From NCBI GenBank assembly GCA_030433275.1, contig JAUILK010000021.1:8177-40176 (forward strand): a stretch of 32,000 nt of DNA. The letters are read 5' to 3'. Below, piece by piece: positions 9,527-30,055 of the stretch. The DNA is from Gammaproteobacteria bacterium (lineage in GTDB: Bacteria > Pseudomonadota > Gammaproteobacteria > Nitrococcales > Nitrococcaceae). Numbering within the stretch: position 1 is the first letter of the stretch; each line of letters begins with the position of its first letter. Both the position numbers and the translations under genes were made by a program. The notes under the pieces are model-generated. The model worked only from the letters and a program-made list of their open reading frames with translations. It was not told the origin of the DNA and did no database searches.

Positions 9527-9696
9527 AAGCAACCCTCCCGGTGGTTGTGGCTGTGCCCTGCCGCGGTGAGGCCTATGAGGGCATAATGTCCGTATAGCGG
9601 GAGTATGGCAAGCTTGTTGCGAAGTCGGCCGGTCAGTGTGGCTGCCATGAGGGTGCGGGCAGGCATGCTTTGGCCAGGGAGATCGTGGACACGGCG

Positions 9697-12749: not shown

Positions 12750-13134
12750 TGACACGCACCGATAAAGCCGCGCACCCGGAAAATGGAACAGGGCCGCCGG
12801 GAAAGCGGCTATGCGAGGCTGGCAGCCGCAGAGAAACTTGGTGTGGACTATACGAGATAGCGTGTGGTTGGGTCGATCCGCCGCCTGCCGCGGCGGGCGT
12901 ACCGCCACCTTTACCACCATGGCGAGGATCAGTGTCATTCGGCGCCTATTAGGCCAGGCATATCGGGAATACGCTTAGCGTTTTTCGTTAATTTTCCTAC
13001 GCGCAGTCTATGGAGCGAGCATTGAATTCTATATGCACGACTCATGGTGTGCGGGTGCCGCTGAATCGGGCATGATTGTCCCGCGATGGCCATCTACTCA
13101 ATCCGTGCATCTCTAATATTTGAGTGCATGATGC

Positions 13135-13146: not shown

Positions 13147-13398
13147 GAAAGGTGAGTATTGCGATCCATGCACGCATATTGCTGTCCCGCACGGCGCGGC
13201 TCATTTGCCAGCGCCCGGCGTGCAGCTTACACTCCTTACGGCTGGCTCAGGGTTGGATTGAATAATTTGGGTAATCCACGAACGGGGCGTTCGACCAGTG
13301 ATGGTGAGCGGATTCTAGGACACGGCAGGCGAGTAAGCGCGCCGAACTTTTCGTCGCTCGTCTGCTCTGCAGTATCACGGAGTGAAAAAAAGCCTAAT

Positions 13399-14484
13399 AT
13401 GCAAGCCAGCGACCAGCAAGCTCCGCCGGATAAGGGCGCCGTGGTTTCTCAGCAGCAGATGCTGCCCGGTGTCTCGCGCACGTTTGCTCTTACCATTCCG
13501 CAACTTCCCGAGCCGCTGCGAACCTCGGTCACCAATGCTTATCTGCTATGCCGGGTTGCGGATACGATCGAGGATGAACCCGCTCTGAGCGCTCGGCAGA
13601 AACAGACTTTTCATGATCGATTTCACGCTATCGTTGCGGGGGGGGAGGAATCGCCCAGCTGTTTCGCAGCTGATCTCTATCCTCTGCTGTCGAAGGCGAC
13701 GTTGGCCGATGAGCGCGAGCTCATCCGGCAGCTGCCCGGGGTGATCGCGATTACCCATTCGTTGCCGATGAAGGAGCGGGCTGCTCTGGAGCGGTGTGTG
13801 CGGATCATGTGCGAAGGAATGCCCTGGTTTCAGCGTAATCGGCGGCAGGGCGGACTCGACGACATATTCGAGTTCGAGCGTTACTGCTATTACGTTGCCG
13901 GCGTGGTCGGAGAGATGCTGACAGAGTTGTTTTGCCAATATTCCACCGACATTTCCCGGCAACGAGAGCGGTTGCATGCCCTGAGTGTTTCGTTCGGGGC
14001 GGGCCTGCAAATGACCAATATACTCAAGGACGTATGGGAGGATCATCGGCGAGGTGCGTGCTGGTTGCCCCGCGATGTTTTCCAGCAGTTTGGGTTCGAG
14101 CTGAGCGATTTGAGCGAAGCGCATTATGATCCGGCCTTCGGTGCCGGGATTCGGGAGTTGGTGGCGCGGGCTCATGGTCATCTTCGCAACGCATTGGCCT
14201 ACGTACAATTGCTTCCTCCGGGCGAAGTTGGAATACGGCGATTCTGTCTGTGGGCTCTGGCGATGGCGGCGCTTACCCTGCAGCGGTTGAATGCCAATCC
14301 CGCTTATCGTTCGGGCAGTGAGGTGAAGATATCGCGCCGCGCCGTTCGTACGACGGTGCTGAGCTTCGGCTTGGCGGCCGGGCGGGATACCATGCTGCGG
14401 TGCCTCTTCGACTGGGCGGCCCGCGGATTGCCATTACGCAGTGTGGACTGCACGGGGGTGGAACATAGGCAGGTCAGGGTGTGA
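13399..14484 (+). CDS. sqs: Squalene synthase (farnesyl-diphosphate farnesyltransferase, single-enzyme Sqs type)
   Basis: The ATG at 13399 gives 361 aa. VSRTFALTIPQLPEPLRTSVTNAYLLCRVADTIEDE carries the first Asp-rich motif. YCYYVAGVVGEMLTELF and GLQMTNILKDVWEDHRRGACWLP carry the second. This resembles eukaryote-type and Methylococcus-type Sqs rather than the shorter HpnC/HpnD. The 80 upstream codons in the ORF track look non-coding. Confidence 0.85.
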   Translation: MQASDQQAPPDKGAVVSQQQMLPGVSRTFALTIPQLPEPLRTSVTNAYLLCRVADTIEDEPALSARQKQTFHDRFHAIVAGGEESPSCFAADLYPLLSKATLADERELIRQLPGVIAITHSLPMKERAALERCVRIMCEGMPWFQRNRRQGGLDDIFEFERYCYYVAGVVGEMLTELFCQYSTDISRQRERLHALSVSFGAGLQMTNILKDVWEDHRRGACWLPRDVFQQFGFELSDLSEAHYDPAFGAGIRELVARAHGHLRNALAYVQLLPPGEVGIRRFCLWALAMAALTLQRLNANPAYRSGSEVKISRRAVRTTVLSFGLAAGRDTMLRCLFDWAARGLPLRSVDCTGVEHRQVRV

Positions 14485-14544
14485 CCTGCTCTTTCCCATG
14501 ATCGCCTGCGCCTGGCTCCGGCGTGTCTATAGTTGGAGAACTGT

Positions 14545-16512
14545 ATGAGATCAATGGAGCAACAGCCCGAGCTACTCTCGGCCGGGATCGGGGGTGTCGC
14601 CTATCCATGGGATCTTGGCGCGCAAACGGTCGAAGAGGCGATTCTTTCGGCTCGCGCAGCCTTGATGGCTCGTATGCATCCGGACGGTTATTGGTGTTTT
14701 GAGCTTGAAGCCGATTGCACCATTCCGGCCGAGTACATCATGATGATGCATTACACCGGAGAAATCGAGGCGGCTCTGGAGCTGAAGCTGGCACGCTATA
14801 TCCGCGAACGTCAGCTCATGGAAGGCGGTTGGCCGCTCTACTACGGTGGTGCTATAGACATCAGTTGCTCGGTGAAGGCGTATTTCGCCTTGAAGCTGGC
14901 GGGAGATGATCCCGACGCGGCGCACATGCGCCGGGCACGCAAGGCGGTTCTTGAGCGCGGCGGCGCGGTTAACGCCAATGTGTTCACGCACATCGCTCTG
15001 GCCCTTTTTGGCGAAATCCCCTGGCGCGGTGTGCCATTCATGCCGCCTGAGATTCTGCTTTTACCCCGCTGGTTTCCATTTCATCTGAGCAAGGTCTCTT
15101 ATTGGTCGCGCACGGTGATGGTGCCTTTGTTCATTCTGGCCGCGTACAAGCCGCGCGCGCGCAATCCGCGCGCTATACACATCGGTGAGCTCTTCGTTAC
15201 CGATCCGCAGCTTGAAACCGATTATTTTAAGGCACGTTCCCGCCTCAACCGCTTGTTCATCACCCTCGATGCGGTGGGACGGCGTATCGAGCCACTCATT
15301 CCCCGGTCGGTGCGTGCCAAGGCGTTACGCCGGGCCGCCGAGTGGTTTATCGCGCGTCTCAACGGAGAGCACGGCTTGGGTGCGATTTTCCCGGCCATGG
15401 TCAACTCTTACGAGGCGCTCGAGCTGTTGGGATATGCAGCCGATCATCCCCTTCGGCAGCAGGTTCGCAAGGGGCTGCGCGATTTGGTGGTTGAACAAGC
15501 CGATCGCGCCTACTGCCAGCCCTGTTTATCCCCGATTTGGGATACCGCGCTGGCTTGTCTCGCCCTGCAGGAAGCTGACCGTGGCAGCAGTTGCGTGCAG
15601 GCCCGCCGCGCTCTGGATTGGTTGCAGGCCCGTCAGCTGTTGAACACACCGGGAGACTGGTCCGAACAGCACCCGAGCCTTCCGGGTGGAGGTTGGCCGT
15701 TCCAATTTCGCAACGATCATTACCCGGATTTGGATGATACTGCTATTGTAGCCTGGGCTATGCAACGCGCCTCGAACAGCGAGCGCTATGGCGAGTCCGT
15801 GCGCCGAGCGACGGTTTGGCTGCTCGGTATGCAATCCGCCAACGGCGGCTTTGCGGCATTCGATTCTGACAATACGCGGTATTATCTCAACGAAATTCCG
15901 TTCGCCGACCATGGCGCTTTGCTTGATCCTCCGACGAGCGATGTGACTGCCCGCGTAGTGGCATTGTTCGGTAGCTTGAATGGGCAACTGCGCGATCGCA
16001 GTGCTTTGGATCGCGCTATTGCGTTTTTGCGTCGTGAGCAGGAACCCGAAGGTTGTTGGTACGGGCGTTGGGGTACCAATTATATCTACGGTACGTGGTC
16101 GGTTCTGACCGCGCTTGAGCAACTCGGCTGCGATTTAAATGCGCCCTGGGTGCGTAAGGCCGTGGCTTGGTTGAAAAGTGTGCAGCGAGATGACGGTGGG
16201 TGGGGAGAGAGCAACGATACCTATCTGGACCACCGGAATTGGGAGGGGCAAGCGGCCGAAAGCACACCGTTTCAGACGGCTTGGGCGGTGCTGGCGCTCA
16301 TTGCCGCCGGGGAATGTCGCTCGCCCGAAGTGTGGCGGGGGGTCGAGTACCTGCTGCGCCACCAGCGCTCGGACGGGCTTTGGCGCTGCCCTTGGTTTAC
16401 AGCGCCGGGATTTCCGCGAGTCTTTTACCTCAAATATCATGGCTATGATGCGTATTTCCCGCTGATGGCGTTGGCGCGCTATCGAAACTGTGTTTTGGAC
16501 AATAGGGCATGA
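14545..16512 (+). CDS. shc: Squalene-hopene cyclase
   Basis: It has the catalytic DxDD motif (DLDDTA, nt 15727-15738) and repeated QW-type motifs (e.g. RREQEPEGCWYGRWG, QRDDGGWGES, QRSDGLW). The ATG at 14545 has GGAGA 5 nt upstream. The ORF track starts at TTG 14533. Confidence 0.95.
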   Translation: MRSMEQQPELLSAGIGGVAYPWDLGAQTVEEAILSARAALMARMHPDGYWCFELEADCTIPAEYIMMMHYTGEIEAALELKLARYIRERQLMEGGWPLYYGGAIDISCSVKAYFALKLAGDDPDAAHMRRARKAVLERGGAVNANVFTHIALALFGEIPWRGVPFMPPEILLLPRWFPFHLSKVSYWSRTVMVPLFILAAYKPRARNPRAIHIGELFVTDPQLETDYFKARSRLNRLFITLDAVGRRIEPLIPRSVRAKALRRAAEWFIARLNGEHGLGAIFPAMVNSYEALELLGYAADHPLRQQVRKGLRDLVVEQADRAYCQPCLSPIWDTALACLALQEADRGSSCVQARRALDWLQARQLLNTPGDWSEQHPSLPGGGWPFQFRNDHYPDLDDTAIVAWAMQRASNSERYGESVRRATVWLLGMQSANGGFAAFDSDNTRYYLNEIPFADHGALLDPPTSDVTARVVALFGSLNGQLRDRSALDRAIAFLRREQEPEGCWYGRWGTNYIYGTWSVLTALEQLGCDLNAPWVRKAVAWLKSVQRDDGGWGESNDTYLDHRNWEGQAAESTPFQTAWAVLALIAAGECRSPEVWRGVEYLLRHQRSDGLWRCPWFTAPGFPRVFYLKYHGYDAYFPLMALARYRNCVLDNRA

Positions 16513-17258
16513 GTCGCATCGGCATAGTGAGCGCCTTGGCAGTCGAAGCCCGCTGTCTGCAGGGTCGCCGCGGTTTGCTCGGGTGGCGGAATGCGCTGCC
16601 CGCCGAGGCCGTTCTGGGGGTGTCTGGCCCCGGAGCTCTATGCGCACAGCACATGGCCGAGCAATTGGTGGCGCAAGGCGCTACGGAATTGGTCAGTTGG
16701 GGATTGGCGGGTGGTTTGGGCCCGGAGATTGCCCCTGGCACGTTGATCGCCGCTGATCGGGTAGTGGTTGCTAGCGGCGGTGCTGGCTATGCTACCGACC
16801 CAAGTTGGCGGCAACGCTTACTCTCGGCTCTCCCACGACGGGTGGAGGTGGTCGAAGCACCGTTGTTTGCGAGTGAGAGCATCGCTGCAACTTCTGCGGA
16901 TAAGGCCGCATTGTGGCGCCGTTATGCGGCGGTTGCCGTAGATATGGAAAGCGGTGCCATTGCTTGCGTGGCAAGTCGGCATCGATTGCCGTTATTGGTG
17001 CTGCGAGTTGTGGTAGATCCGGCTGATATGGCGCTGCCCTCAGCACTTGCCAATCTCATGGCTCGCGATGGTGGAGTGCGTCTATCTCGCCTGGTTGGCC
17101 TCCTGATCCGCCGGCCGAGCGTACTTTGGCCCTTGCTCGGGCTTGCTTGGAATGCTCGGATCGCCACTTCGACCTTGCGGCGGGTCGGGCCAATGGTGAC
17201 GGATCGCGGTGTTTGGCCCCCAGCTGCCGCTGAGGGCAATCTCTCATTACTCCCTTGA
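16509..17258 (+). CDS. hpnG: Hopanoid-associated nucleosidase/phosphorylase HpnG (PNP/UDP_1 family)
   Basis: Its start overlaps the shc stop (ATGA at 16509-16512). The protein is MSRIGIVSALAVEARCL...VSWGLAGGL...AVAVDMESGAIA, a nucleoside phosphorylase fold. Its position right after shc is typical of hpnG. Confidence 0.75.
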   Translation: MSRIGIVSALAVEARCLQGRRGLLGWRNALPAEAVLGVSGPGALCAQHMAEQLVAQGATELVSWGLAGGLGPEIAPGTLIAADRVVVASGGAGYATDPSWRQRLLSALPRRVEVVEAPLFASESIAATSADKAALWRRYAAVAVDMESGAIACVASRHRLPLLVLRVVVDPADMALPSALANLMARDGGVRLSRLVGLLIRRPSVLWPLLGLAWNARIATSTLRRVGPMVTDRGVWPPAAAEGNLSLLP

Positions 17259-17329
17259 TTCTGCTCTATGAGCTCCTGACTACTGCCAGCTGTTTTTTTA
17301 CATTGTCGAGCAGCGGTAGTGAGCGCCCC

Positions 17330-19279
17330 TTACGGCTTTGCCGCTGATTGATTTTGGGCGTCTGAGCCGATTTTTGCCGGACCGTGTATCCGTTGTTTGC
17401 GGCAGGATCGTGTGCCGACTATGTGCTGTACTCGGCCATCGTTTTGCAGTGTGGCCAGAATGCCGTTGGCATCGAGCCCGGTATCTGCTAGCTGCTCTTC
17501 TTGGCTACCGTGCTCGATAAAGCGATCGGGCTGCCCGATCTGAAGCAACGGGATACTGATCCTTTCTTTGGCCAAAGCCTCGCCGACGGCACTGCCCGCG
17601 CCCCCAGCGACAGCATTGTCTTCGACGGTTACGATGAATTCGTGACTGGTGGCGAGTTCGACGAGCAGCTTCCTATCCAACGGCTTTACGAAGCGCATAT
17701 TGACTACGGTTGCCCCCAAGCGCTCGCCTACCTCTAGACACGCCGATAGGAGCGTGCCGAAGGCTAGGATAGCAATACCTGAACCCGATTGGCATATCTG
17801 CGCCTTGCCGATCGGCAAGGCGCGCATTTCTGGGTCGACTGCCACACCGGCCCCTTTACCGCGTGGGTAGCGTACGGCCGCCGGACCGTCGAGGAGGAAA
17901 CCGGTATAAAGCATCTGTCGACACTCGTTTTCGTCGGCCGGCGCCATAATGACCATGTTCGGCACGCAGCGCATGAAGCTCAGGTCGAAGGTGCCTTGGT
18001 GGGTCGCGCCATCGGCGCCTACCGCGCCGGCGCGGTCCACTGCAAAGAGTACCGGTAGATTTTGCAGAGCCACATCGTGGATGAGCTGATCATAGGCCCG
18101 TTGCAAGAAGGTAGAATAAATAGCCACCACGGGCTTCAGGCCATCGGCGGCCATGCCAGCGGCAAGCGTTACGCTGTGTTGCTCGGCTATGGCGGTGTCG
18201 AAGTAACGTTCCGGGAAGCGCTCGGAAAAGCCCACCAACCCTGAGCCCTCACGCATTGCAGGGGTAATGGCCACCAAGCGCTGATCATGGCGTGCCATGT
18301 CGCAGAGCCAGTCGCCAAATACTTGGCTGTAGGTAGGAATTGCAGGGGGGGTGCTCGACTTGCGTATTCCAATTTTGGGGTCGAATGGCGAGACACCGTG
18401 ATACTGGATCTGATCGGCCTCCGCCGGTGGGTAGCCTTTGCCTTTGCGAGTCACCACGTGCAGCAGCCGCGGTCCTTGTTGAAAGCGCAGATTGCGCAGC
18501 GTGTGGATCAGCGTTGGCATATGGTGTCCGTCGACCGGCCCAAAGTAGCGAAAGCCGAGTTCTTCGAACAATGTACCGGGCACGACCAATCCTTTGGTAT
18601 GTGTTTCGACCCGTTTAGCGAGCTCCCACATCGGCGGTACCGTTTGCAGGATACGTTTGCCGCTTTCGCGCAGGGCTGTGTACTGCCGGCTTGAGGCGCA
18701 GCGGGCAAGATAGTTGCTCAGGCCGCCGACGTTACGCGAAATGGACATCTCGTTGTCGTTGAGGATCACCAGTAAATCTGGGTGCCGATCACCCGCATGG
18801 TTGAGGGCTTCATAAGCCATTCCGCAGGTCATACCCCCATCGCCGATCACCGCCACGGCTCGTCGTTGCGAGTTTTGCCGTGCGGCGGCGAGTGCCATGC
18901 CGAGCGCTGCGCCGATCGCAGTGCCGGCATGACCCACGGCGAACGTATCATACGGGCTTTCGTCGCGATGCGGGAAAGGTGCCAAGCCGCCGTGCTTGCG
19001 GATGGTGTGCAGCTGTTCCCGCCGACCGGTCAGAATCTTGTGTGGATAGGCTTGATGACCAACATCCCATACTAGGCGGTCTTCCGGCGTTTCGAATACG
19101 TAATGTAGCGCGATTGTCAGTTCTACGGCACCGAGCCCGGCGCCGAGGTGGCCACCGTTACCGGAGACCGTCTCCAGCAAAAATTCCCGTAGCTCCCGTG
19201 CGAGAACCGGTAACTGCGCTTCGGGCAATTGCCGAAGGTCCTCGGGATACCTCACGGATTCCAGCAGGGAGCGTGCCAT
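17330..19279 (-). CDS. dxs: 1-deoxy-D-xylulose-5-phosphate synthase
   Basis: The ATG at 19279 gives [18 protein letters not shown], a typical Dxs N-terminus. It has [19 protein letters not shown] and the TPP-binding [18 protein letters not shown]. The ORF track adds 17 N-terminal residues. A tail of about 35 residues follows the usual Dxs C-terminus. Confidence 0.94.
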
Positions 19280-19632
19280 AGCGAACACCTTTCCATACTC
19301 AGCGGTTGACCTTGATCGTTTCTTAAGCATTCATTGTGACTGCGGTTGTGATGAACAGCCACCATCAGTTTAATCGGCCGTATGCCACCGGCCACGAATC
19401 GAGCTGCTCTACAGAGACATAGAAAATCGACTTCATCTGTCAACTTAGGCTTGAATGATCGAGCGGTCTAGTGCTAAACGTGACACAACGCGCACGGCTT
19501 GTGGTTTTTGGGCATTGTACCCTCCGTTGCGCAGACGAGTCGCTGGGACGCAAAATTACCACAGTCCCGCCGCTATGAGTGTGGCGAATTGCCGACAAAC
19601 TGCCTGACCCAGTACTGAGCCGTGGATATGCA

Positions 19633-20553
19633 ATGGACGTGATATTGGCTCAACCCCGTGGATTTTGTGCCGGTGTGGTTCGCGCCGTCGAGATCGTCGA
19701 AAGTGCCTTGGCACTCCACGGCGCCCCTGTCTATGTACTGCACGAGATCGTGCACAATCAGCACGTAGTCCAGGATCTCAGCAAGCGCGGTGCAATTTTT
19801 GTGGAGTCCCTCGAAGAGGTCCCCGTGCAATCAGTGATTATATTCAGCGCTCACGGGGTCGCGACCGCTGTAGCTCAGCGAGCCAGGGGGATGGGTCTTC
19901 GGATTATTGACGCGACCTGTCCGTTGGTGAGCAAAGTCCATCGGCAGGCGCAGCGCTATCGTGACGCAGGCTACGAACTTATCATTGTTGGTCATGGCGG
20001 GCACCCCGAAGTGCAGGGTACTCGTGGTCGAGTGGAAGGGCCGGTGCATGTGCTTGCAACGGCGGAAGAAGTCGATGCGTTGCGCGTTCAGGACCCGCAA
20101 GCGCTCGCCTACGTCACGCAAACGACTTTGAGTCTCGACGATACCCGTGAGGTTGTTGCGGCGCTCAAGGCCCGATTCCCAAAAATTCAAGGCCCCGGCC
20201 TGAACGACATCTGTTACGCTACTCAAAATCGCCAGAACGCGGTGCGTGAACTCGCCGCACAAGTCGATGTGTTACTTGTGGTCGGTGCTCGCAACAGCTC
20301 CAATTCCAACCGCTTGCGCGAAGTTGGCGAACAGATGGGGGTTCGTTCCTATCTCCTGCAAACCGAGGATGATCTGGAACCGGAGTGGTTCCCTGCTTGC
20401 ACCCGCGTGGGCATAACCGCGGGGGCATCGGCTCCGGAAGTGCTGGTGCAGCAGGTACTCGAGCGCTTGCGTGTGTTTGGCGTTGAGACGGTTGCTGAGC
20501 TCGACGGCGTGAAGGAAGCGACGCGCTTTCGGCTACCACCCATGTCGGATTGA
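19633..20553 (+). CDS. ispH: 4-hydroxy-3-methylbut-2-enyl diphosphate reductase
   Basis: The ATG at 19633 gives MDVILAQPRGFCAGVVRAVEIVE. The three cluster cysteine contexts are present (FCAGV, DATCPLV, NDICYAT), as is SSNSNRL. The product is 306 aa. Confidence 0.93.
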   Translation: MDVILAQPRGFCAGVVRAVEIVESALALHGAPVYVLHEIVHNQHVVQDLSKRGAIFVESLEEVPVQSVIIFSAHGVATAVAQRARGMGLRIIDATCPLVSKVHRQAQRYRDAGYELIIVGHGGHPEVQGTRGRVEGPVHVLATAEEVDALRVQDPQALAYVTQTTLSLDDTREVVAALKARFPKIQGPGLNDICYATQNRQNAVRELAAQVDVLLVVGARNSSNSNRLREVGEQMGVRSYLLQTEDDLEPEWFPACTRVGITAGASAPEVLVQQVLERLRVFGVETVAELDGVKEATRFRLPPMSD

Positions 20554-20614
20554 TAGGGCGGCGCGCGTTTGGATTTTAACTTACCCCTCTTCGGTCTAGG
20601 GAAGGAAGTTTATT

Positions 20615-21766
20615 ATGGGCATCCCGCTGATCCAGAAGTACCGGATCGGTCGTTATATCCTCTCCAAGCGAATCAAGGGCGAGCGGCGTTACCCGCTGGT
20701 GTTGATGCTTGAGCCGTTGTTTCAGTGCAATTTGGCGTGTGCTGGTTGCGGCAAGATCGACTATCCCAGCGAGATTCTGCGCAAACGTTTGAGCGTCGAA
20801 CAGGCACTCGGCGCGGTGGATGAGTGCGATGTGCCCGTAGTCTCTATCCCCGGGGGGGAGCCATTGATTCACAAAGAAATGCCGCGCATCGTCGAGGGGA
20901 TCATCGCGCGCAAAAAGTTCGTCTATCTTTGCACGAACGCAATTTTATTGGCGAAGAAGCTGGATGATTACCGTCCCTCGCCGTATTTGACATTCTCGGT
21001 GCATTTAGACGGCAATCGCGAGCGACACGATGAGTCGGTTTGTCAGGAAGGCGTGTTCGACAAGGCGGTTGCCGCTATCCGCAAGGCGCGCGATCGGGGT
21101 TTTCGGGTCAACATCAACTGCACCCTTTTTCAGGGCGAGGATCCGGTGGAGGTCGCCGATTTCTTCGACTTTGTTACCGACCTCGGCGTCGAGGGTATCA
21201 CTGTTTCCCCGGGCTATAGCTACGAGCGTGCTCCGCGCGATGATGTTTTTCTGGCCCGCAGCCAGAGCAAGCAGCTGTTTCGTGAGGTCTTCCGTCGCGA
21301 TCGCCGCCGGCGCTGGCCGCTGAGCCATTCTGTGTTGTTTCTGGATTTCTTGGCGGGCAATCAAACCTATGAGTGCACGCCTTGGAGCAACCCCACCTAC
21401 AACGTCTTCGGCTGGCAAAAACCATGCTATCTTCTGGCGGACGAAGGTTATGCTGCTACGTTTAAGGAACTCATGGAGGAGACCGACTGGAAGCACTATG
21501 GCACCGGGCGAAATCCAAAATGCGATAATTGCATGGCGCACTGTGGCTATGAGGGAAGTGCGGTAGCTGACACTCTGCTACACCCTTGGAAAGCGCTTGG
21601 GGTGAGTTTGCGCGGCCCGCGTACCCGAGGTCCGATGGCACCGGAAGTGCCGATTCATTATGCCCAGGAAGAGCTGGCGGCCCGTGGCGATGAGGTTCGG
21701 ATACCAGTGGAGCGCATCTCTCGGAGTGAGCCACGCGCGGCTGTGCCACCCGGGGCGCAGCGCTGA
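20615..21766 (+). CDS. hpnH: Adenosyl-hopene transferase HpnH (radical SAM)
   Basis: It has a strong RBS (GGGAAGGAAG) and the radical SAM CxxxCxxC motif CNLACAGC at nt 20726-20749. At 383 aa and placed in the hopanoid cluster next to ispH, it fits HpnH. Confidence 0.9.
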   Translation: MGIPLIQKYRIGRYILSKRIKGERRYPLVLMLEPLFQCNLACAGCGKIDYPSEILRKRLSVEQALGAVDECDVPVVSIPGGEPLIHKEMPRIVEGIIARKKFVYLCTNAILLAKKLDDYRPSPYLTFSVHLDGNRERHDESVCQEGVFDKAVAAIRKARDRGFRVNINCTLFQGEDPVEVADFFDFVTDLGVEGITVSPGYSYERAPRDDVFLARSQSKQLFREVFRRDRRRRWPLSHSVLFLDFLAGNQTYECTPWSNPTYNVFGWQKPCYLLADEGYAATFKELMEETDWKHYGTGRNPKCDNCMAHCGYEGSAVADTLLHPWKALGVSLRGPRTRGPMAPEVPIHYAQEELAARGDEVRIPVERISRSEPRAAVPPGAQR

Positions 21767-21770
21767 TTCA

Positions 21771-22751
21771 GTGGGCGTCGGGCTCGAAGTGCTGTGGACG
21801 GCTTATCCGGCATTGTTGGGGATGATTTTATGGTTGGGGGTGCTCGTCGTGCCATGGAGGCCTTGGAGCACTCAGGAACGGCTGGACGTTCGAGACGGGG
21901 TTGGGAAAGACGTTAGTCTGAGCGATATCACCGTTTTGATTCCAGCGCGCAACGAAGCGCAGATGATCGCTCGCTGCTTGTCTGCGCTGAGTTCGCAAGG
22001 CAAAGACTTGCAGGTCGTGGTCGTTGACGATCAGTCCACGGACGATACTGTTGTGGCCATTCCCGCGCTTCCGGCGCTACGCCTCGAGGTTATCCCTGGA
22101 CGGCCGTTGCCGGAAGGTTGGGCCGGCAATCTCTGGGCCTTGGAGCAAGGGATGCAACGGGTTCGCACGCCGCTTATTTTGTTGCTCGATGCCGATATTG
22201 TGCTGGTTCCGGGCATGGTGGCCACACTACGTGCCCGGCTCTTGCAGCAGGGTTTGGATCTGGTTTCGGTCATGCCGTGGTTGCGTATGCAAGCTCTTTG
22301 GGAGCGGCTGCTCATCCCGTCGTTTATCTTTTTTTTCAAGTTGCTGTATCCGTTTCGACTCGCTAATTCCGGTTCGGTGCGCTTTTCTGCCGCCGCGGGT
22401 GGTTGCATCCTGTTGCGCACCGAGGCCTTGCATCGCATCGGTGGTTTCGCGGCCCTGCGTAGTGCGCTCATCGATGACTGCACTCTGGCGCGGCGAATCA
22501 AGTTGGCTGGAGGGTTGAGTTGGACCGGTCTGACGCGCAGCGCGTGGAGTCTGCGAAGCTACCGGCGTTTGAGCGAGCTCTGGAATATGGTAGCCCGTTC
22601 CGCGTTTATCCAGCTGCGTTATTCAACTGTTCTTCTGCTTGCGTGCACGCTTGTAATGATGACCGGTTTCTGGGGGGCCGTTGTCGGGCTAGCGCCGGGG
22701 GAGGGGATGGTTCGATGGGTTGGTCTGGCCGGGTGGTTTTTTTATGCATAA
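21771..22751 (+). CDS. Family-2 glycosyltransferase, hopene-associated HpnB-like (HpnI not excluded); N-terminal and catalytic portion, ending prematurely after a T7 run
   Basis: It has an N-terminal TM helix, then the GT2 core ITVLIPARNEAQMIARCL...LQVVVVDDQSTDDT...LLLDADIV...GGCILLR. The start is uncertain: GTG 21771, GTG 21789 or ATG 21822, and the ORF track begins inside hpnH at 21660. The frame ends GWFFYA* at 22751, while the homologous C-terminus continues in another frame. Confidence 0.65.
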   Translation: MGVGLEVLWTAYPALLGMILWLGVLVVPWRPWSTQERLDVRDGVGKDVSLSDITVLIPARNEAQMIARCLSALSSQGKDLQVVVVDDQSTDDTVVAIPALPALRLEVIPGRPLPEGWAGNLWALEQGMQRVRTPLILLLDADIVLVPGMVATLRARLLQQGLDLVSVMPWLRMQALWERLLIPSFIFFFKLLYPFRLANSGSVRFSAAAGGCILLRTEALHRIGGFAALRSALIDDCTLARRIKLAGGLSWTGLTRSAWSLRSYRRLSELWNMVARSAFIQLRYSTVLLLACTLVMMTGFWGAVVGLAPGEGMVRWVGLAGWFFYA

Positions 22752-23071: not shown

Positions 23072-23584
23072 TCAGGCGGCGGCTGCCAGAGCCGCTGGCT
23101 GCAGCGCTTCGACCAGCTCCAGCAGCAGCGCTTTTTCGGGTGGCGAGAAACGCTCGTGCGCATCATAGGGGTAGCGGGGTACTGTGGCGGCCCCGATATC
23201 GAGGCAGTACTCCAGGATCATCCGACGCCGTTTGTTATTCACTCGAGGATCCGAGTGATCGAAAATCACGGGCATGGCCAATTGTCGAAGTTCACGCAGC
23301 ATCGTGCGGTTCGGCTGCTTACTGAGAAAGCGCTCGACGAAGGCGTTGACCTGCCCTGCGGTAAGCACGCTCAGGCCATGTGCTTCGTGGTCCAGTTCAG
23401 CGAGCCGCCGTAAGGCAAACTCGTAGACAAGGGCGGCCTCCGCGGGCTTGCTTCGGCCGTCGGCCCATACCATCTCGATGAGCGGAATCAGTTCGAGGAG
23501 GTAGATCTCGTGACCTTGAATACCGTACTGAGTTTCCAGCACCGTCAGAGCATCTTCACGCGTGATGTGCACTACGTTTTTCAT
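23072..23584 (-). CDS. Hypothetical protein, TerB-like (tellurite-resistance TerB / DjlA N-domain-like fold)
   Basis: The ATG at 23584 gives MKNVVHITREDALTVL. The pattern LIPLIEMVWADGRSKPAEAALVYEFA, with a second helical half, resembles the TerB-like ADG...E motif. This is a weak assignment from pattern only. An alternative start lies at 23605. Confidence 0.45.
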   Translation of the reverse strand: MKNVVHITREDALTVLETQYGIQGHEIYLLELIPLIEMVWADGRSKPAEAALVYEFALRRLAELDHEAHGLSVLTAGQVNAFVERFLSKQPNRTMLRELRQLAMPVIFDHSDPRVNNKRRRMILEYCLDIGAATVPRYPYDAHERFSPPEKALLLELVEALQPAALAAAA

Positions 23585-23668
23585 TCGTATGCTACCCTCT
23601 AGCATGACTCACACATCGGCAGTATGGCAGCAACTCGTCTCGCCGCGTCCCCGGTCGTCTGTTATTTG

Positions 23669-27237: not shown

Positions 27238-27576
27238 GGCCAGTTTTTACGGCGGCAATGGGCAAATCCGATTTTGCCTCGAGCGGGGCGGGTCGAACAA
27301 CGGCGGTTGTTCCTAGCACAGTGTGTGGTCATGGGGCGTATCCATATGGTGCCGCGACTCTCACCCAGATCTTTTAAGCGGCTAATCTGTGGTAGAAGAG
27401 CTTGAAGAGCCGTATTTTTTGTTAGTCTGATATGGGGGAATAGGACTATAACAGATGGGTGCCGGTATGAGCGCATCCAAGGGTTTTTTTTAGGAGAGAG
27501 CGGGTCTGGAACCCACGGCTGCGGGAGGATGGCGTAGGCGGTGCGCCGAGCGCATGGCGTTATCTGGAGGCCCACA

Positions 27577-28725
27577 GTGCGTAATCCGTATCGTGTCCTG
27601 ATCTGGATGAGTCTGTTTCTAGTCGTCGTGGCTCTTGTCAGCGTTATGTTGGCAGTCCCGCTGCGCAGTGCCTTCATGGCGAATCCGGTATTCAATGGCA
27701 TGATCCTAACTGTGCTGTTCATCGGGCTTGTCGTCGATTATCGACAGGTGTTGGTGCTAGCTCCTGAAGTGCGTTGGATCGAAGCCTTTCGCCGTGCCGA
27801 AGGCGAGATGCCGTTGCCGAGCAGTCGGTTGCTTGGTTCGATGGCTCGTATGCTGACGGGTCGCCATGGGGACCGTTTCAGTCTCTCGGCGCTGTCGTTG
27901 CGCGCTTTGCTGGATGGAATCCGATCCCGCCTGGATGAGGCCCGCGACTTGTCTCGTTATATTGTCGGGCTGTTGGTTTTTCTGGGATTGCTCGGAACGT
28001 TTTGGGGCCTGCTTGAGACCCTGCGCGCCGTGGCGGGCGTGATCGGCGAACTGAACGTGCACACTCAGGGCACGGCAGCCATGTTCAGCGCGCTCAAGCT
28101 GGGTTTACAGCGGCCGCTCTCCGGTATGGGCACCGCGTTTAGCTCCTCGCTGTTCGGTTTGGCGGGTGCGTTGGTGTTGGGTTTTATTGATCTGCAGGCA
28201 GGGCACGCCCAAAACCGTTTTTACAATGACCTTGAAGAATGGCTCTCCGGTCAAACCCGATTATCCTCTGGAGCTTTCACTGGGGAAAGCGAGGGCATAT
28301 TGCCCGCCTATGTCCATGCCTTGCTGGAGCAGACTGCGGACAGTTTGGATAGGCTGCAGCGCGTGATGACACGCAGTGAGCATGAGCGGCACTCTGCTGA
28401 TCAAAAGCTGCTGAGTCTCACCGAGCAGATCGCGAACCTTTCCGAGCAGGTACGTAGCGAACAGAAGGGTTTGATCGGCTTGACTCGGATGCAGGCCGAG
28501 CTGCGGGGCCTATTGGACCGGCTTGCTGTTGGGCTCGAGGGTAACGAGGAGCATGCCCAAGAGGCAGGTGAATCCCTGCGTCATATTGTGCACGGCATCA
28601 CGAGCTTGCGCCAGGAGCTTATCGTGGATCGAGAACGTCTGAGCAACGAGTTACGCGAGGAAGTACGCTTGCTGACACGCACGGTGGCCCATTTGGGCAC
28701 TGTGGAGCGGTCCTCGAATCAATAA
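27577..28725 (+). CDS. MotA/TolQ/ExbB-type proton-channel family protein with a C-terminal helical tail of about 170 residues
   Basis: The GTG at 27577 has GGAGG (27566-27570) 6 nt upstream. The ORF track starts at 27541. Four hydrophobic helices are predicted. The channel-core-like motifs are YIVGLLVFLGLLGTFWGLLETL and GMGTAFSSSLFGLAGALVLGFIDL. Residues from about 210 to 382 are charge-rich and heptad-like (LDRLQRVMTRSEHERHSADQKLLSLTEQIANLSEQVRSEQ...). Confidence 0.7.
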   Translation: MRNPYRVLIWMSLFLVVVALVSVMLAVPLRSAFMANPVFNGMILTVLFIGLVVDYRQVLVLAPEVRWIEAFRRAEGEMPLPSSRLLGSMARMLTGRHGDRFSLSALSLRALLDGIRSRLDEARDLSRYIVGLLVFLGLLGTFWGLLETLRAVAGVIGELNVHTQGTAAMFSALKLGLQRPLSGMGTAFSSSLFGLAGALVLGFIDLQAGHAQNRFYNDLEEWLSGQTRLSSGAFTGESEGILPAYVHALLEQTADSLDRLQRVMTRSEHERHSADQKLLSLTEQIANLSEQVRSEQKGLIGLTRMQAELRGLLDRLAVGLEGNEEHAQEAGESLRHIVHGITSLRQELIVDRERLSNELREEVRLLTRTVAHLGTVERSSNQ

Positions 28726-28735
28726 CGCAAAGGCA

Positions 28736-30055
28736 ATGTTCGAAGCGCAGCGGCGCGGCCGCTACAGTCTCAATATTTGGCCGGGTTTCGTCGACTCTTT
28801 AGCCACGATTCTGTTGGTGTTCGTCTTTGTTTTACTGCTGTTCGTGGTGGGGCAATCCTATCTGAGTCAGGAGTTGACGGGGCAGAGTCAGGCACTGGAG
28901 CAGCTGCACGCGCAGCTGGATCAGCTTGCCCAGATGCTTTCGCTTGAACGGGAGCGCAAGGCGCAGGCCGAGGCAAGGCTATCACGGGTCTACCAACAGT
29001 TGCATGACACGCGCTCAGAGCGGGATCAATTGCATGCTGATCTGCAGATGACACGGGTCGAAATCAGCCAACTCAAGGCCGATGTGGCGCATGCCAACGA
29101 ACGAATCGATGTTTCCGAGCGGCAGCTCAAGCGGCGGTTCAGCGAGATTGCCTCGTTGCAGGCGGACATCGGTATGCTACGGAAGGTGCGTGAGACGCTT
29201 GAGGTGAAGGTCGGCGAGTTGGCTTCACATCTTGAACACTCCCAGGAGAAACTTGGTGTGGCTCGAGATCGCACTAAGGCGCTTGAGGCGCGGCTTGCCG
29301 AGGTGCAGGAGCGCACTCAACTGGCCCAGCAAACGCTGCGACGGCGGGAGGTCCGTATTCAGGATCTGGTGACCCAAGTAGAGGAGCGGCAAAAGGCGCT
29401 TGCGCACCAGCATTGGCTAAGCGCCGCTGCCGATGACAAGCTCAACGCCCTGCGCCGGCAGATCGAGGCTTTGCAAGAGCGGATCAACACGCTGGCCGTT
29501 GCGCTGCAGAGCTCCGAACAAACGGTGGCTTCTCAAAAGGTAGAGATCCGCCGTCTCGGCGGGCAGCTCAACGCGGCATTGGTTAAGAAAGTTAAGGAGC
29601 TGTCGTATTACCGTTCGGAATTCTTCGGCCGATTGCGTCGGGTGCTGGGCGATGTGCCGGAGATCCGGATCGTCGGCGATCGTTTCATGTTCCAGTCCGA
29701 GCTCTTCTTCCCCAGCGGTTCGGCGCAAATCGAAGCGTCGGGCAGGGATAAGCTCGATCGTCTCGCTGCCGTGCTCGAGGAAGTTTCCCGGCGCATCCCC
29801 GGCGAGGTCGATTGGGTGTTGCAGGTGGATGGTCATACCGACCGGCGTCCCATACACACGCTCCGCTTCCCTTCCAACTGGGAACTCTCGACGGCCCGTG
29901 CCTTAGCCATCGTCCATTATCTCGTCAGCCGGGATGTGCCGCCAAACCGGTTGGCGGCGGCGGGGTACGGCCAATACGATCCGCTCGACTCACGTAATTC
30001 AGAACGGGCCTTCGCGCGCAATCGCCGGATCGAGCTACGGTTGACGAGCCGCTGA
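28736..30055 (+). CDS. MotB-type partner: single TM with conserved Asp, long coiled coil, C-terminal OmpA-like peptidoglycan-binding domain
   Basis: It starts 10 nt after the upstream stop. It has a basic N-terminus and the TM helix WPGFVDSLATILLVFVFVLLLF (Asp20, nt 28793-28795). Residues about 45-290 look like coiled coil. The OmpA/MotB C-domain motifs are FFPSGSAQI, VDGHTDRRPI, NWELSTARALAIVHYL, GYGQYDPL and NRRIELRL. Confidence 0.78.
   Translation: MFEAQRRGRYSLNIWPGFVDSLATILLVFVFVLLLFVVGQSYLSQELTGQSQALEQLHAQLDQLAQMLSLERERKAQAEARLSRVYQQLHDTRSERDQLHADLQMTRVEISQLKADVAHANERIDVSERQLKRRFSEIASLQADIGMLRKVRETLEVKVGELASHLEHSQEKLGVARDRTKALEARLAEVQERTQLAQQTLRRREVRIQDLVTQVEERQKALAHQHWLSAAADDKLNALRRQIEALQERINTLAVALQSSEQTVASQKVEIRRLGGQLNAALVKKVKELSYYRSEFFGRLRRVLGDVPEIRIVGDRFMFQSELFFPSGSAQIEASGRDKLDRLAAVLEEVSRRIPGEVDWVLQVDGHTDRRPIHTLRFPSNWELSTARALAIVHYLVSRDVPPNRLAAAGYGQYDPLDSRNSERAFARNRRIELRLTSR

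What the first reader, a model, noticed from the sequence alone, without database searches (positions are those of the whole stretch)
27577..30055. Orphan MotA/MotB-type two-gene module with coiled-coil extensions on both subunits: a candidate uncharacterised ion-driven motor
Seen in the sequence: two co-oriented ORFs lie 10 nt apart. ORF A (382 aa) has two N-terminal hydrophobic helices and a loop of about 70 residues. It then has GLLVFLGLLGTFWGLLETL ... GMGTAFSSSLFGLAGALVLGF, the pattern of the MotA/TolQ/ExbB channel core, followed by about 170 residues of heptad-like, charge-rich sequence. ORF B (439 aa) has a short basic N-terminus and one TM helix with an Asp near its cytoplasmic end (WPGFVD20SLATILLVF), placed like the ion-binding Asp of MotB, ExbD and TolR. 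It continues with about 245 residues of coiled-coil-like sequence and a C-terminal OmpA/MotB peptidoglycan-binding domain. Established knowledge: MotAB, PomAB, ExbBD, TolQR, AglRQS, GldLM and ZorAB are ion-driven membrane motors, and each is coupled to a dedicated output partner. Inference: none of those partners is present in this window. The neighbours are a divergent AI-2E transporter and a convergent small hydrolase. The tail on the A subunit recalls ZorA but is much shorter. A long coiled coil on the B subunit is not a feature of any characterised stator family I know. The output of this putative motor is therefore unknown.
Basis: partly seen in the sequence, partly recalled or inferred. 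Interest (0 to 1): 0.8.

Follow-up and report, generated by a model that had tools for sequence, protein, structure and literature searches.

The report
Uncharacterised ZorAB-like membrane motor gene pair
Two adjacent genes in a Nitrococcus chromosome encode what looks like a small ion-driven membrane motor anchored to the cell wall by an unusually long coiled-coil stalk. The pair is conserved in hundreds of proteobacterial species, resembles the core of the Zorya anti-phage system, sits among housekeeping genes, and has no known job.

Summary
ORF A (27577-28725, 382 aa) and ORF B (28736-30055, 439 aa) are intact, co-oriented and 10 nt apart.

- **A subunit.** A has a 4-TM MotA/ExbB/TolQ/ZorA-type core, with a fold match to ExbB, TolQ, ZorA and MotA. 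It also has a ~150-aa helical cytoplasmic tail.
- **B subunit.** B has one TM helix with an invariant W-P-G-F-V-Asp20 motif. A ~265-residue heptad coiled coil follows, then an OmpA/MotB-type peptidoglycan-binding domain.

The pair is not an isolated orphan. It belongs to a large, vertically inherited family found in at least 577 species of Alpha-, Beta- and Gammaproteobacteria. B passes NCBIfam NF006543 (PRK09039, "peptidoglycan-binding protein"), which names no function. By sequence, A is closest to ZorA: 37 of 37 diverse homologues hit PADLOC ZorA models. However, no Zorya effector, flagellar, Ton/Tol or gliding partner lies nearby, the flanking genes are housekeeping genes, and the family has no hit in the phage collection and none on a genuine plasmid.

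My best reading is a housekeeping, ZorAB-like 5:2 ion-driven complex. B would be tethered to the wall and the A ring and tail would be the moving or signalling part. The output is unknown.

B's stalk varies from 179 to 459 aa in whole heptads, whereas A's tail length is nearly constant. I found no paper on this family. It is a new variant of a known kind and of moderately high interest.

The parts
27238..27576 (+). Upstream intergenic region shared with the divergent AI-2E (PerM-like) transporter gene. It contains the ribosome-binding site GGAGG at 27566-27570 for ORF A.
   Evidence: Sequence read. No sigma-70-like promoter or Rfam element was detected here.
27577..28725 (+). ORF A, the A subunit (382 aa, GTG start): a ZorA/MotA/ExbB/TolQ-superfamily channel protein with a cytoplasmic helical tail.
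27586..27747 (+). Two N-terminal hydrophobic helices of A (about residues 4-24 and 37-57) joined by a short conserved loop (invariant N40). This is a MotA-like TM1-TM2 hairpin; the basic N-terminus and the post-TM2 segment point to the cytoplasm.
   Evidence: AF2 helices and conservation. The topology is inferred from the positive-inside rule.
27961..28191 (+). Channel core of A. TM3 (residues 129-150, FLGLLGTFWGLLET, invariant G137, G140, T141, G144 and T148), a ~30-aa periplasmic loop (invariant P180), and TM4 (residues 184-205, GMGTAFSSSLFGLAG, invariant M184, F188 and G194).
   Evidence: Invariant columns in alignments A2 and A3. The Pfam MotA_ExbB and PADLOC ZorA matches cover this region. 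Fold match.
28303..28716 (+). Cytoplasmic tail of A (residues ~243-380). It consists of two long helices and is heptad-phased from 243 to ~333. Its length is nearly constant across the family, and close relatives share a conserved C-terminal LRxExRLLTRT motif.
   Evidence: The PADLOC ZorA1 match extends to residue 344.
28726..28735 (+). 10-nt A-B spacer (cgcaaaggca), consistent with operon-type coupling.
   Evidence: A-B gaps are mostly 3-30 nt in 78 related loci.
28736..30055 (+). ORF B, the B subunit (439 aa). It is a member of NCBIfam NF006543 (PRK09039.1-2, "peptidoglycan-binding protein").
   Evidence: (397.6 bits against a cutoff of 305).
28778..28852 (+). Single TM helix of B, with the W15-P-G-F-V-D20 motif at its cytoplasmic end. 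The Asp20 codon is at 28793-28795.
   Evidence: The motif W-[PA]-[GA]-[FYW]-V-D is present in 78 of 78 family members. W15, P16, V19 and D20 are invariant.
28853..29647 (+). Periplasmic coiled-coil stalk of B (residues ~40-304). The heptad register is nearly continuous with 2-3 local shifts. Conserved IASLQ and RDR(S/T)KALEA motifs are present.
29648..30052 (+). OmpA/MotB-type peptidoglycan-binding domain of B (residues ~305-439). The YRSEFFGRL lead-in helix and the GHTD...NWELSxARA motif are intact.
   Evidence: Pfam OmpA, 62.5 bits. PDB sequence hits to MotS, MotB, PomB and TssL. Foldseek best hits are the MotS, PomB and MotB periplasmic domains. Invariant residues.

Best explanation
The two genes encode the A and B subunits of a ZorAB/MotAB-type ion-driven inner-membrane complex, most likely A5B2, which belongs to a distinct, chromosomally inherited housekeeping family.

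**Proposed mechanism**
- Two B transmembrane helices carrying Asp20 sit inside a ring of A subunits. The conserved Thr/Ser-rich TM3 and TM4 helices of A form the ion path.
- Ion flow through Asp20 drives rotation, or a conformational cycle, of the A ring relative to B.
- B is fixed to the peptidoglycan by its C-terminal OmpA-type domain through a long dimeric coiled-coil stalk that preserves its heptad register.
- The moving or signalling output is the bundled, fixed-length cytoplasmic tail of A. Alternatively, the output could be strain transmitted along the B stalk.
- The likely role is an envelope function that links the state of the cell wall to the cytoplasmic face of the membrane. It is not flagellar rotation and not classical Zorya defence.

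**Shown:** the domain architecture, homology, conservation of the key residues, operon linkage, phyletic spread and housekeeping context.

**Inferred:** the 5:2 stoichiometry, ion coupling, which part moves, and the biological output.
For: - **A subunit, fold.** The AF2 model of A (pLDDT 82) retrieves only 5:2-motor A subunits among its top 50 PDB matches. These include ExbB 5sv0_D (E 1.2e-3), TolQ, ZorA 8vvn_D (6e-3), and MotA/PomA.
- **A subunit, sequence.** All 37 diverse A homologues hit PADLOC ZorA1 and ZorA3 (best E 1e-15) and 29 of 37 hit Pfam MotA_ExbB. In NCBIfam, which also holds MotA, ExbB and TolQ models, the only channel-family hits are ZorA_2 and ZorA_4.
- **Conserved core residues.** T141, T148, G137, G140 and G144 in TM3 and M184, F188 and G194 in TM4 are invariant.
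- **B subunit.** The Asp motif is present in 78 of 78 homologues. The OmpA domain scores 62.5 bits with an intact GHTD/NWELSxARA motif. Its closest folds are the periplasmic domains of MotS, PomB and MotB.
- **Operon linkage.** B follows A in every locus not cut by a contig end, usually 3-30 nt apart.
- **Stalk register.** Stalk length is congruent to 4 mod 7 in 53 of 71 homologues, and the heptad register is continuous.
- **Housekeeping inheritance.** At least 577 species carry the family. Synteny is conserved with suhB/efp in Alphaproteobacteria and with perM in the Nitrococcus/Spiribacter group. No phage record matches, and the only five matches in the plasmid collection are megabase-sized Sinorhizobium and Shinella replicons, not mobile plasmids. 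Flanking genes give no PADLOC hits.
Against: - The window's A protein is below the Pfam MotA_ExbB gathering score (18.3 vs 22.9) and has no significant PDB sequence hit.
- Stoichiometry, ion flow and rotation are untested.
- The B stalk would be 23-65 nm long if extended, which is longer than a periplasm is wide. Its length varies widely between species, which is hard to reconcile with a simple perpendicular wall anchor.
- The AF2 monomer folds the stalk as a hairpin, and I could not resolve the real geometry.
- No output partner is identified in this genome's window.
Confidence: 0.6

Rival explanations
1. It is a Tol/Ton-like periplasmic force transducer. Here the A ring is the static part and the B dimer is the rotor. 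B would combine the roles of TolR (Asp-bearing TM helix), TolA (long helical spacer) and Pal (OmpA domain), and would apply torque or tension to the wall or outer-membrane region. In Alphaproteobacteria this might occur together with the adjacent secreted Pro/Ala-rich OmpA-like protein.
For: - ExbB and TolQ are the best structural matches to A.
- The long, length-variable helical periplasmic segment is reminiscent of TolA domain II (my own knowledge).
- About 38 alphaproteobacterial loci carry a third gene directly upstream that encodes a signal peptide, a Pro/Ala-rich linker and an OmpA domain.
- The heptad phase is preserved along the stalk, as expected for a stiff transmission element.
Against: - A wall-bound OmpA domain at the tip of a rotating axle is mechanically awkward.
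- No TolA, TonB, TolB or Pal gene lies nearby.
- By sequence, A is nearer to ZorA than to ExbB or TolQ.
- A's conserved, fixed-length cytoplasmic tail suggests that the output is on the A side.
- The third gene is absent from the gammaproteobacterial loci.
Confidence: 0.15
2. It is an anti-phage defence module: a minimal or novel Zorya-type system whose effector genes lie elsewhere or are still unrecognised.
For: - The best sequence matches of both subunits in PADLOC are ZorA1/ZorA3 and ZorB3/ZorB1.
- The A subunit has a ZorA-like C-terminal tail.
Against: - No ZorC, D, E, F or G gene and no other PADLOC hit occurs in the flanks or in the 32 kb.
- NCBIfam ZorA_2 and ZorA_4 scores of 16 bits fall far below cutoffs of 100-500.
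- The tail is ~150 aa, compared with several hundred residues in ZorA profiles of 683-1063 positions.
- The family shows conserved synteny with housekeeping genes across orders, and the only plasmid-collection matches are megabase-sized Sinorhizobium and Shinella replicons rather than mobile plasmids. This is the opposite of a mobile defence island.
Confidence: 0.1
3. It is a passive structural tether. B would simply link the inner membrane to the peptidoglycan through a coiled-coil spacer, with A as an accessory or assembly factor and no ion-driven motion.
For: - The OmpA domain and the long coiled coil are typical of structural envelope proteins.
- Stalk length varies widely.
- The function is unknown.
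Against: - The buried Asp in B's TM helix is present in all 78 family members. The Thr/Gly-rich TM3/TM4 core of A is invariant. Such conservation is hard to explain without ion coupling.
- A and B are strictly co-encoded.
Confidence: 0.1
4. It is a flagellar stator paralogue, which is how many database records annotate homologues ("flagellar motor protein MotA", "chemotaxis protein MotB").
For: - Source annotations use these names.
- B's C-terminal domain is most similar to the periplasmic domains of MotS, PomB and MotB.
Against: - A gives no hit to any MotA or PomA NCBIfam model at E <= 0.1.
- B scores 57-100 bits against MotB, MotD and MotS equivalogs whose cutoffs are 250-312.
- B's plug and linker are replaced by a 265-aa coiled coil.
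- No flagellar gene lies in the 32 kb.
- The pair is kept in Spiribacter species with ~1.9-Mb genomes. These are described as non-motile (my own knowledge, not tested here).
Confidence: 0.03

Closest known systems
ZorA/ZorB core of Zorya anti-phage systems (structures 8QYD, 8QYH and 8VVN; Hu et al. 2024, cited within PMC11890865; Mariano et al. 2025, PMC11890865)
   Same: - A MotA-like A subunit with a C-terminal helical cytoplasmic tail.
- A B subunit with one Asp-bearing TM helix and an OmpA-type peptidoglycan-binding domain.
- A-then-B gene order.
- It is the best sequence relative: PADLOC ZorA1 at 1.6e-13 and ZorB3 at 4.5e-21, with 37 of 37 family members matching.
   Different: - No ZorC/D, ZorE or ZorF/G genes.
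- The tail is ~150 aa instead of several hundred.
- B carries a 265-aa coiled coil that ZorB lacks.
- The context is housekeeping, syntenic and vertically inherited, not a defence island.
- Scores are far below the NCBIfam ZorA cutoffs.
Flagellar stators MotAB, PomAB and MotPS
   Same: - A 4-TM topology of A, with an N-terminal TM pair plus a TM3/TM4 core.
- B has an Asp near the cytoplasmic end of its TM helix.
- The wall-binding domain of B is closest in fold to MotS, PomB and MotB.
   Different: - A's cytoplasmic loop is only ~70 aa.
- A gives no MotA or PomA model hit.
- The plug and flexible linker are replaced by a rigid coiled coil.
- There is no flagellar context.
ExbB-ExbD and TolQ-TolR (with TonB or TolA)
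   Same: - They are the best structural matches to the A core.
- The GLLGT-type TM motif is shared (my own knowledge of ExbB and TolQ motifs).
- TolA domain II provides a long helical periplasmic element, which is a functional analogy to the B stalk.
   Different: - ExbD and TolR lack an OmpA domain and a coiled coil.
- They need a separate TonB or TolA subunit.
- ExbB and TolQ have 3 TM helices and no long C-terminal tail.
- No sequence-level hit was found.
NCBIfam PRK09039 family (NF006542 to NF006546, "peptidoglycan-binding protein")
   Same: B is a bona fide member: NF006543 scores 397.6 bits against a cutoff of 305.
   Different: The family name describes a domain, not a function. I found no experimental paper (and the other literature searches).

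Membership tests
MotA/ExbB/TolQ/ZorA superfamily (5:2 motor A subunits) | Match to Pfam PF01618 MotA_ExbB at or above the gathering score | tested here: inconclusive
   The window protein scores 18.3 bits against a gathering score of 22.9. The close homologue P0018 scores 23.7. In all, 29 of 37 family members match at E <= 0.01, best 1.7e-6.
MotA/ExbB/TolQ/ZorA superfamily (5:2 motor A subunits) | The fold of the TM core, with long TM3/TM4 helices extending into the cytoplasm | tested here: met
   The AF2 model has pLDDT 82. All 50 top Foldseek PDB hits are ExbB, TolQ, ZorA, MotA or PomA, with probability ~1.0 and TM-score (target-normalised) up to 0.54.
MotA/ExbB/TolQ/ZorA superfamily (5:2 motor A subunits) | A5B2 assembly and ion-driven rotation | not testable with these tools
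   No multimer prediction or experiment was available. This is inferred from homology only.
MotB/ExbD/TolR/ZorB-type B subunit | A single N-terminal TM helix with a conserved acidic residue near its cytoplasmic end | tested here: met
   D20 lies in the W-P-G-F-V-D motif, which is present in 78 of 78 homologues and is invariant in alignment A4.
MotB/ZorB-type B subunit | A C-terminal OmpA-like peptidoglycan-binding domain with binding-site residues | tested here: met
   Pfam OmpA scores 62.5 bits. GHTD and NWELSxARA are invariant. The fold matches MotS, PomB, MotB and Pal. Actual binding was not tested.
Zorya defence system (types I-III) | ZorA and ZorB accompanied by ZorC+ZorD, ZorE, or ZorF+ZorG in the same locus | tested here: not met
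   No PADLOC hit in 10 flanking proteins. Pfam content of the whole 32-kb window is housekeeping. Related loci show no conserved effector-like neighbour.
Zorya defence system (types I-III) | ZorA family score above the NCBIfam cutoff, and a long (several hundred aa) tail | tested here: not met
   NF033915 scores 16.3 against a cutoff of 100, and NF033917 scores 15.8 against 500. The tail is ~150-175 aa, and the PADLOC ZorA profiles are 683-1063 positions long.
Flagellar stator (MotAB, PomAB, MotPS) | Equivalog-level match to MotA/PomA and MotB/PomB/MotS models | tested here: not met
   A gives no MotA or PomA hit at E <= 0.1. B scores 99.8 against 283 for MotD, 93.3 against 264 for MotS, and 64 against 300 for MotB.
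Flagellar stator (MotAB, PomAB, MotPS) | Genomic or functional association with flagellar genes | tested here: not met
   No flagellar gene occurs in the window or in the related loci inspected. Whole-genome association was not testable.
ExbBD-TonB and TolQRA-Pal | An ExbD/TolR-type B subunit (no OmpA domain) plus an adjacent TonB or TolA | tested here: not met
   B has an OmpA domain and no ExbD or TolR hit. No TonB or TolA gene lies in the window.
NCBIfam NF006543 (PRK09039.1-2, peptidoglycan-binding protein) | Whole-protein score at or above the curated cutoff | tested here: met
   397.6 bits against a cutoff of 305.

The most novel reading that the evidence does not exclude
This is a new functional class of 5:2 ion-driven machine. 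It would be a housekeeping sister lineage, possibly the ancestral stock, of the Zorya ZorAB core. Its wall-anchored B subunit carries a register-preserving periplasmic coiled coil of 23-65 nm, and its A ring bears a fixed-length cytoplasmic tail. The machine would couple the mechanical or geometric state of the peptidoglycan and periplasm to a cytoplasmic process in ordinary growth, not in phage defence or motility.
Probability: 0.35. Interest if true: 0.8.

Novelty: new variant of a known kind. Interest (0 to 1): 0.62.

Why it matters
Every characterised 5:2 motor has revealed a distinct way of delivering membrane energy to the cell envelope or beyond. The known examples are MotAB, ExbBD, TolQR, GldLM, AglRQS and ZorAB.

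This family matters for four reasons:
- It is widespread: at least 577 species and about 2,600 clusters at 50% identity.
- It is retained in small genomes.
- It is routinely mis-annotated as a flagellar protein.
- It has an architecture seen in none of the characterised families, namely a long phased coiled coil on the B subunit.

If it is a housekeeping relative of ZorAB, it would give Zorya an evolutionary origin. It would also offer a tractable system, for example in Sinorhizobium meliloti or Azospirillum, for asking what a wall-tethered motor with a cytoplasmic tail does in normal physiology.

Tried and rejected
- **PDB sequence searches with A.** A phmmer search gave no hit. A full-length profile was swamped by coiled-coil noise, with ZorA 8vvn at only E 0.02. 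A profile of the TM core gave only non-significant ZorA hits at E ~1. Sequence alone therefore cannot place A among solved structures, and fold search was needed.
- **Promoter and terminator scan.** Nothing exceeded the shuffled expectation.
- **RNA searches.** Rfam and tRNA searches of the window found nothing.
- **Literature.** Eight full-text searches (two further queries failed on term syntax and searched nothing) and four papers read turned up no paper on this family. The two papers that mention PRK09039 are incidental.
- **Mobile origin.** No phage record matched. The "plasmid" hits were megabase-sized Sinorhizobium and Shinella replicons; the S. meliloti one I inspected carries a housekeeping neighbourhood.
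- **Simple equal-armed hairpin for the B stalk.** The AF2 monomer suggested it, and the model matched SMC arms. It does not fit the family. The RDR-to-OmpA arm is constant at ~115 aa while the TM-to-RDR arm varies from 144 to 337 aa, and the heptad register runs through the predicted break.
- **Perpendicular extended rod for the B stalk.** This is also unsatisfactory because of the stalk's length.
- **AI-2E transporter as a partner.** I considered this because of the shared adjacency in Nitrococcus and Spiribacter. The gene is 7.8 kb away in Thioalkalivibrio and was not among the conserved neighbours in the alphaproteobacterial loci, so the adjacency is probably lineage synteny.
- **PilZ protein at 8888-9760 as a partner.** It lies 18 kb away and is unlinked in the related loci.


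Full report
**Observation**

The window carries two intact, co-oriented ORFs. ORF A ends at 28725. ORF B is 28736-30055 (439 aa, ATG start), and the spacer is exactly 10 nt. Asp20 of B is encoded at 28793-28795. Both proteins are 100% identical to database entries from a 57-kb NCBI contig. They are 89% and 82% identical to Nitrococcus mobilis proteins, so the source is a Nitrococcus chromosome.

**Anatomy of A**

The AF2 model, built with a 37-sequence alignment, has mean pLDDT 82. It gives helices 4-24, 26-35, 37-73, 87-94, 105-159, 166-232, 243-320 and 324-380. Hydrophobicity and the positive-inside rule suggest the following layout; the topology is inferred.
- A MotA-like TM1-TM2 pair at the N-terminus.
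- A ~70-aa cytoplasmic loop ending in the conserved RLDExRDxSRY segment.
- TM3 (FLGLLGTFWGLLET).
- A ~30-aa periplasmic loop.
- TM4 (GMGTAFSSSLFGLAG).
- A cytoplasmic helical tail of ~150-175 residues.

Across relatives of 33-76% identity, G137, G140, T141, G144, T148, P180, M184, F188 and G194 are invariant.

**Anatomy of B**

B has a short basic N-terminus, then a TM helix beginning with W15-P-G-F-V-D20. The AF2 model (pLDDT 74) shows one very long helix (16-172), a low-confidence break (173-179), a second long helix (180-304) and an OmpA fold. Pfam OmpA scores 62.5 bits. The GHTD and NWELSxARA residues typical of peptidoglycan-binding OmpA-like domains are invariant. The closest solved sequences and folds are the periplasmic domains of MotS, MotB, PomB and T6SS TssL.

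**What family is A?**

The window protein is formally below the Pfam MotA_ExbB gathering score (18.3 vs 22.9 bits). It has no significant PDB hit by sequence, even with profiles. Three independent lines nevertheless place it in the 5:2-motor A-subunit superfamily.
- 29 of 37 diverse homologues match MotA_ExbB.
- All 37 match the PADLOC ZorA1 and ZorA3 models, best E 1e-15. In NCBIfam, which also holds MotA, PomA, ExbB and TolQ models, the only channel-family hits are two ZorA subfamilies, both far below cutoff.
- The top 50 Foldseek hits of the model in the PDB are exclusively ExbB, TolQ, ZorA, MotA and PomA.

The family is therefore a divergent member of the superfamily whose nearest sequence relatives are ZorA proteins.

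**What family is B?**

B passes the curated cutoff of NCBIfam NF006543 (PRK09039.1-2, "peptidoglycan-binding protein"; 397.6 vs 305 bits). It fails all flagellar MotB, MotD and MotS equivalogs by a wide margin. The B family is therefore already catalogued, but only under a domain-level name.

**Distribution and context**

- An exhaustive HMMER scan of 1.84 billion representatives found 2,590 clusters at 50% identity with E <= 1e-3, and 524 with E <= 1e-30.
The best 80 were mostly Alphaproteobacteria (Rhodospirillales, Acetobacteraceae, Azospirillum, Kiloniellales, Hyphomicrobiales). There were also Gammaproteobacteria (the Nitrococcus, Spiribacter and Thioalkalivibrio group, and the Xanthomonadales Dokdonella and Chiayiivirga) and Betaproteobacteria (Thauera).
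- I clustered all ORFs of 83 loci. The B gene follows the A gene in every locus not truncated by a contig end, usually 3-30 nt downstream.
- Neighbours are housekeeping genes and are lineage-specific: suhB and efp upstream in many Alphaproteobacteria, thiE-sel1-suhB-A-B-ABC-rpmE in Sinorhizobium meliloti, and a divergent perM in Nitrococcus and Spiribacter.
- The 32-kb window is core chromosome. It holds fmt, def, a LysM protein, dprA, topA, tsaC, hemF, a PilZ protein, a DjlA-like protein, a hopanoid and isoprenoid cluster, and tex.
- No flanking protein hits PADLOC. The family has no hit in the phage collection, and the only "plasmid" hits are megabase-sized Sinorhizobium and Shinella replicons.
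- This pattern indicates vertical inheritance of a housekeeping function. It does not fit a defence island or a flagellar regulon.

**A possible third component**

In about 38 alphaproteobacterial loci a gene directly upstream of A, on the same strand, encodes a signal peptide, a Pro/Ala-rich low-complexity linker and an OmpA-like domain (Pfam OmpA, 42.6 bits). Several other alphaproteobacterial loci have an unclustered ORF in the same position. It is absent from the window and from the other gamma- and betaproteobacterial loci.

**The stalk and the tail**

- *Stalk length.* In 71 B homologues, the distance from the TM Asp motif to the YRSEFF motif that opens the OmpA domain ranges from 179 to 459 residues. 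It is congruent to 4 mod 7 in 53 cases. The rest fall in classes expected from 3- or 4-residue coiled-coil discontinuities. Close relatives differ by 7, 14, 21 or 28 residues, and some carry tandem duplications of a ~150-200-aa module.
- *Register.* In the window protein one heptad register runs from residue 39 to ~192, that is through the AF2 "break", with only two or three local shifts further on.
- *Which arm varies.* Where an RDR(S/T) motif is present, the segment from it to the OmpA domain is constant (115 aa in most), and only the membrane-proximal arm varies (144-337 aa).
- *Geometry unresolved.* The AF2 monomer packs the two helices as an antiparallel hairpin, since it aligns to SMC arms. 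The unmatched arm lengths argue against a simple equal-armed hairpin. A fully extended rod of 23-65 nm exceeds the width of a periplasm (my own knowledge: roughly 20-30 nm).
- *A tail.* By contrast, the A tail is nearly constant in length. The distance from the TM4 motif to the C-terminus is 190-200 aa in most homologues.

**Mechanism**

The conserved buried Asp in B, the invariant Thr/Gly-rich TM3/TM4 of A, the strict A-B operon and the fold all point to a MotAB/ZorAB-type A5B2 ion-conducting complex. This is an inference from homology; stoichiometry and ion flow were not tested. B ends in an intact wall-binding domain, and A carries a conserved, fixed-length tail that is homologous to the proximal ZorA tail (the PADLOC match reaches residue 344). 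The most economical model is therefore the one proposed for ZorAB and MotAB (PMC11890865, PMC9389320). B is the wall-tethered stator axle, and the A ring with its tail turns or switches in response to ion flow, delivering its output in the cytoplasm. The register-preserving stalk implies that strain or orientation is transmitted between the wall anchor and the membrane core, rather than the two being connected by a slack linker. What the output acts on is unknown.

The rival readings, in my order of likelihood, are:
- a Tol/Ton-like transducer in which B is the moving part;
- a Zorya-like defence module with unrecognised effectors;
- a passive tether;
- a flagellar stator paralogue.

**Comparison with known systems**

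The pair works most like ZorAB, but it fails the defining features of Zorya: there are no effector genes, the scores are sub-threshold, the tail is short, and the context is housekeeping. It fails the flagellar stator and ExbBD/TolQR membership tests. It is a member of the MotA/ExbB/TolQ/ZorA superfamily by fold, and of NCBIfam PRK09039 for the B subunit. I know of no characterised stator-type B subunit with a long coiled coil. Recent surveys of 5:2 motors and of MotAB relatives do not describe one (PMC9389320, PMC12505986, PMC12204202). Eight full-text literature searches found no paper on this family.

**Verdict**

I rate it a new variant of a known kind, with interest 0.62.

Noticed in passing
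window 13159-22751: A hopanoid and isoprenoid gene cluster. It comprises squalene/phytoene synthase (13159-14484), squalene-hopene cyclase (14533-16512), a PNP_UDP-type HpnG-like gene (16509-17258), dxs (17330-19330, - strand), ispH/lytB (19579-20553), a radical-SAM gene with DUF3463 that is HpnH-like (20615-21766), and a family-2 glycosyltransferase (21660-22751).
   Followed up: no
window 8888-9760 (-): A 290-aa protein with a C-terminal PilZ domain. PilZ proteins are known to bind stator units in flagellar systems (PMC11725899). This one lies 18 kb from the A-B pair and is not linked to it in the related loci.
   Followed up: partly
window 2056-3138 (+): A LysM-domain protein lies between def/fmt and dprA. 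From my own knowledge, this position and domain recall the type IV pilus secretin-associated protein TsaP. I did not test this.
   Followed up: no
window 9670-10482 (+); L002 3904-4704: A DjlA-like protein (TerB + DnaJ domains) lies about 17 kb upstream of the pair in the window and about 5 kb upstream of it in Spiribacter. This is probably residual synteny within the lineage.
   Followed up: no
window 12036-12938 (-) and 23072-23605 (-): Two sizeable ORFs (300 aa and 177 aa) have no Pfam family at E <= 1e-5 and no PADLOC hit. The neighbouring ORF at 10545-11972 is a DUF4139 protein.
   Followed up: no
Alphaproteobacterial loci, e.g. L058 7015-8004, L032 1607-2980, L074 6896-7927: A third gene sits directly upstream of A on the same strand in about 38 loci. 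It encodes a signal peptide, a Pro/Ala-rich linker and an OmpA-like domain. It is a candidate extra component and is absent from the window.
   Followed up: partly
B homologues P0150, P0222 and P0190; 71 loci: B shows tandem duplications of a ~150-200-aa coiled-coil module. The arm from the RDR motif to the OmpA domain is strictly constant at ~115 aa, while the membrane-proximal arm varies from 144 to 337 aa. The stalk geometry remains unexplained.
   Followed up: partly
L039 9058-9606 (Defluviicoccus MAG): The B gene appears truncated: the ORF carrying the TM Asp motif is only 182 aa and has no OmpA motif. This could be a pseudogene or an assembly frameshift.
   Followed up: no
Database names of homologues: Annotations are inconsistent and probably wrong. 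A homologues are called "flagellar motor protein MotA", "flagellar biosynthesis chaperone FliJ", "ElaB/YqjD/DUF883" or "PerM". B homologues are called "chemotaxis protein MotB".
   Followed up: partly
L083 3337-4482 (Sinorhizobium meliloti): A Sel1-repeat protein lies between thiE and suhB, just upstream of the S. meliloti A-B pair. I do not know whether it is functionally linked to the pair.
   Followed up: no
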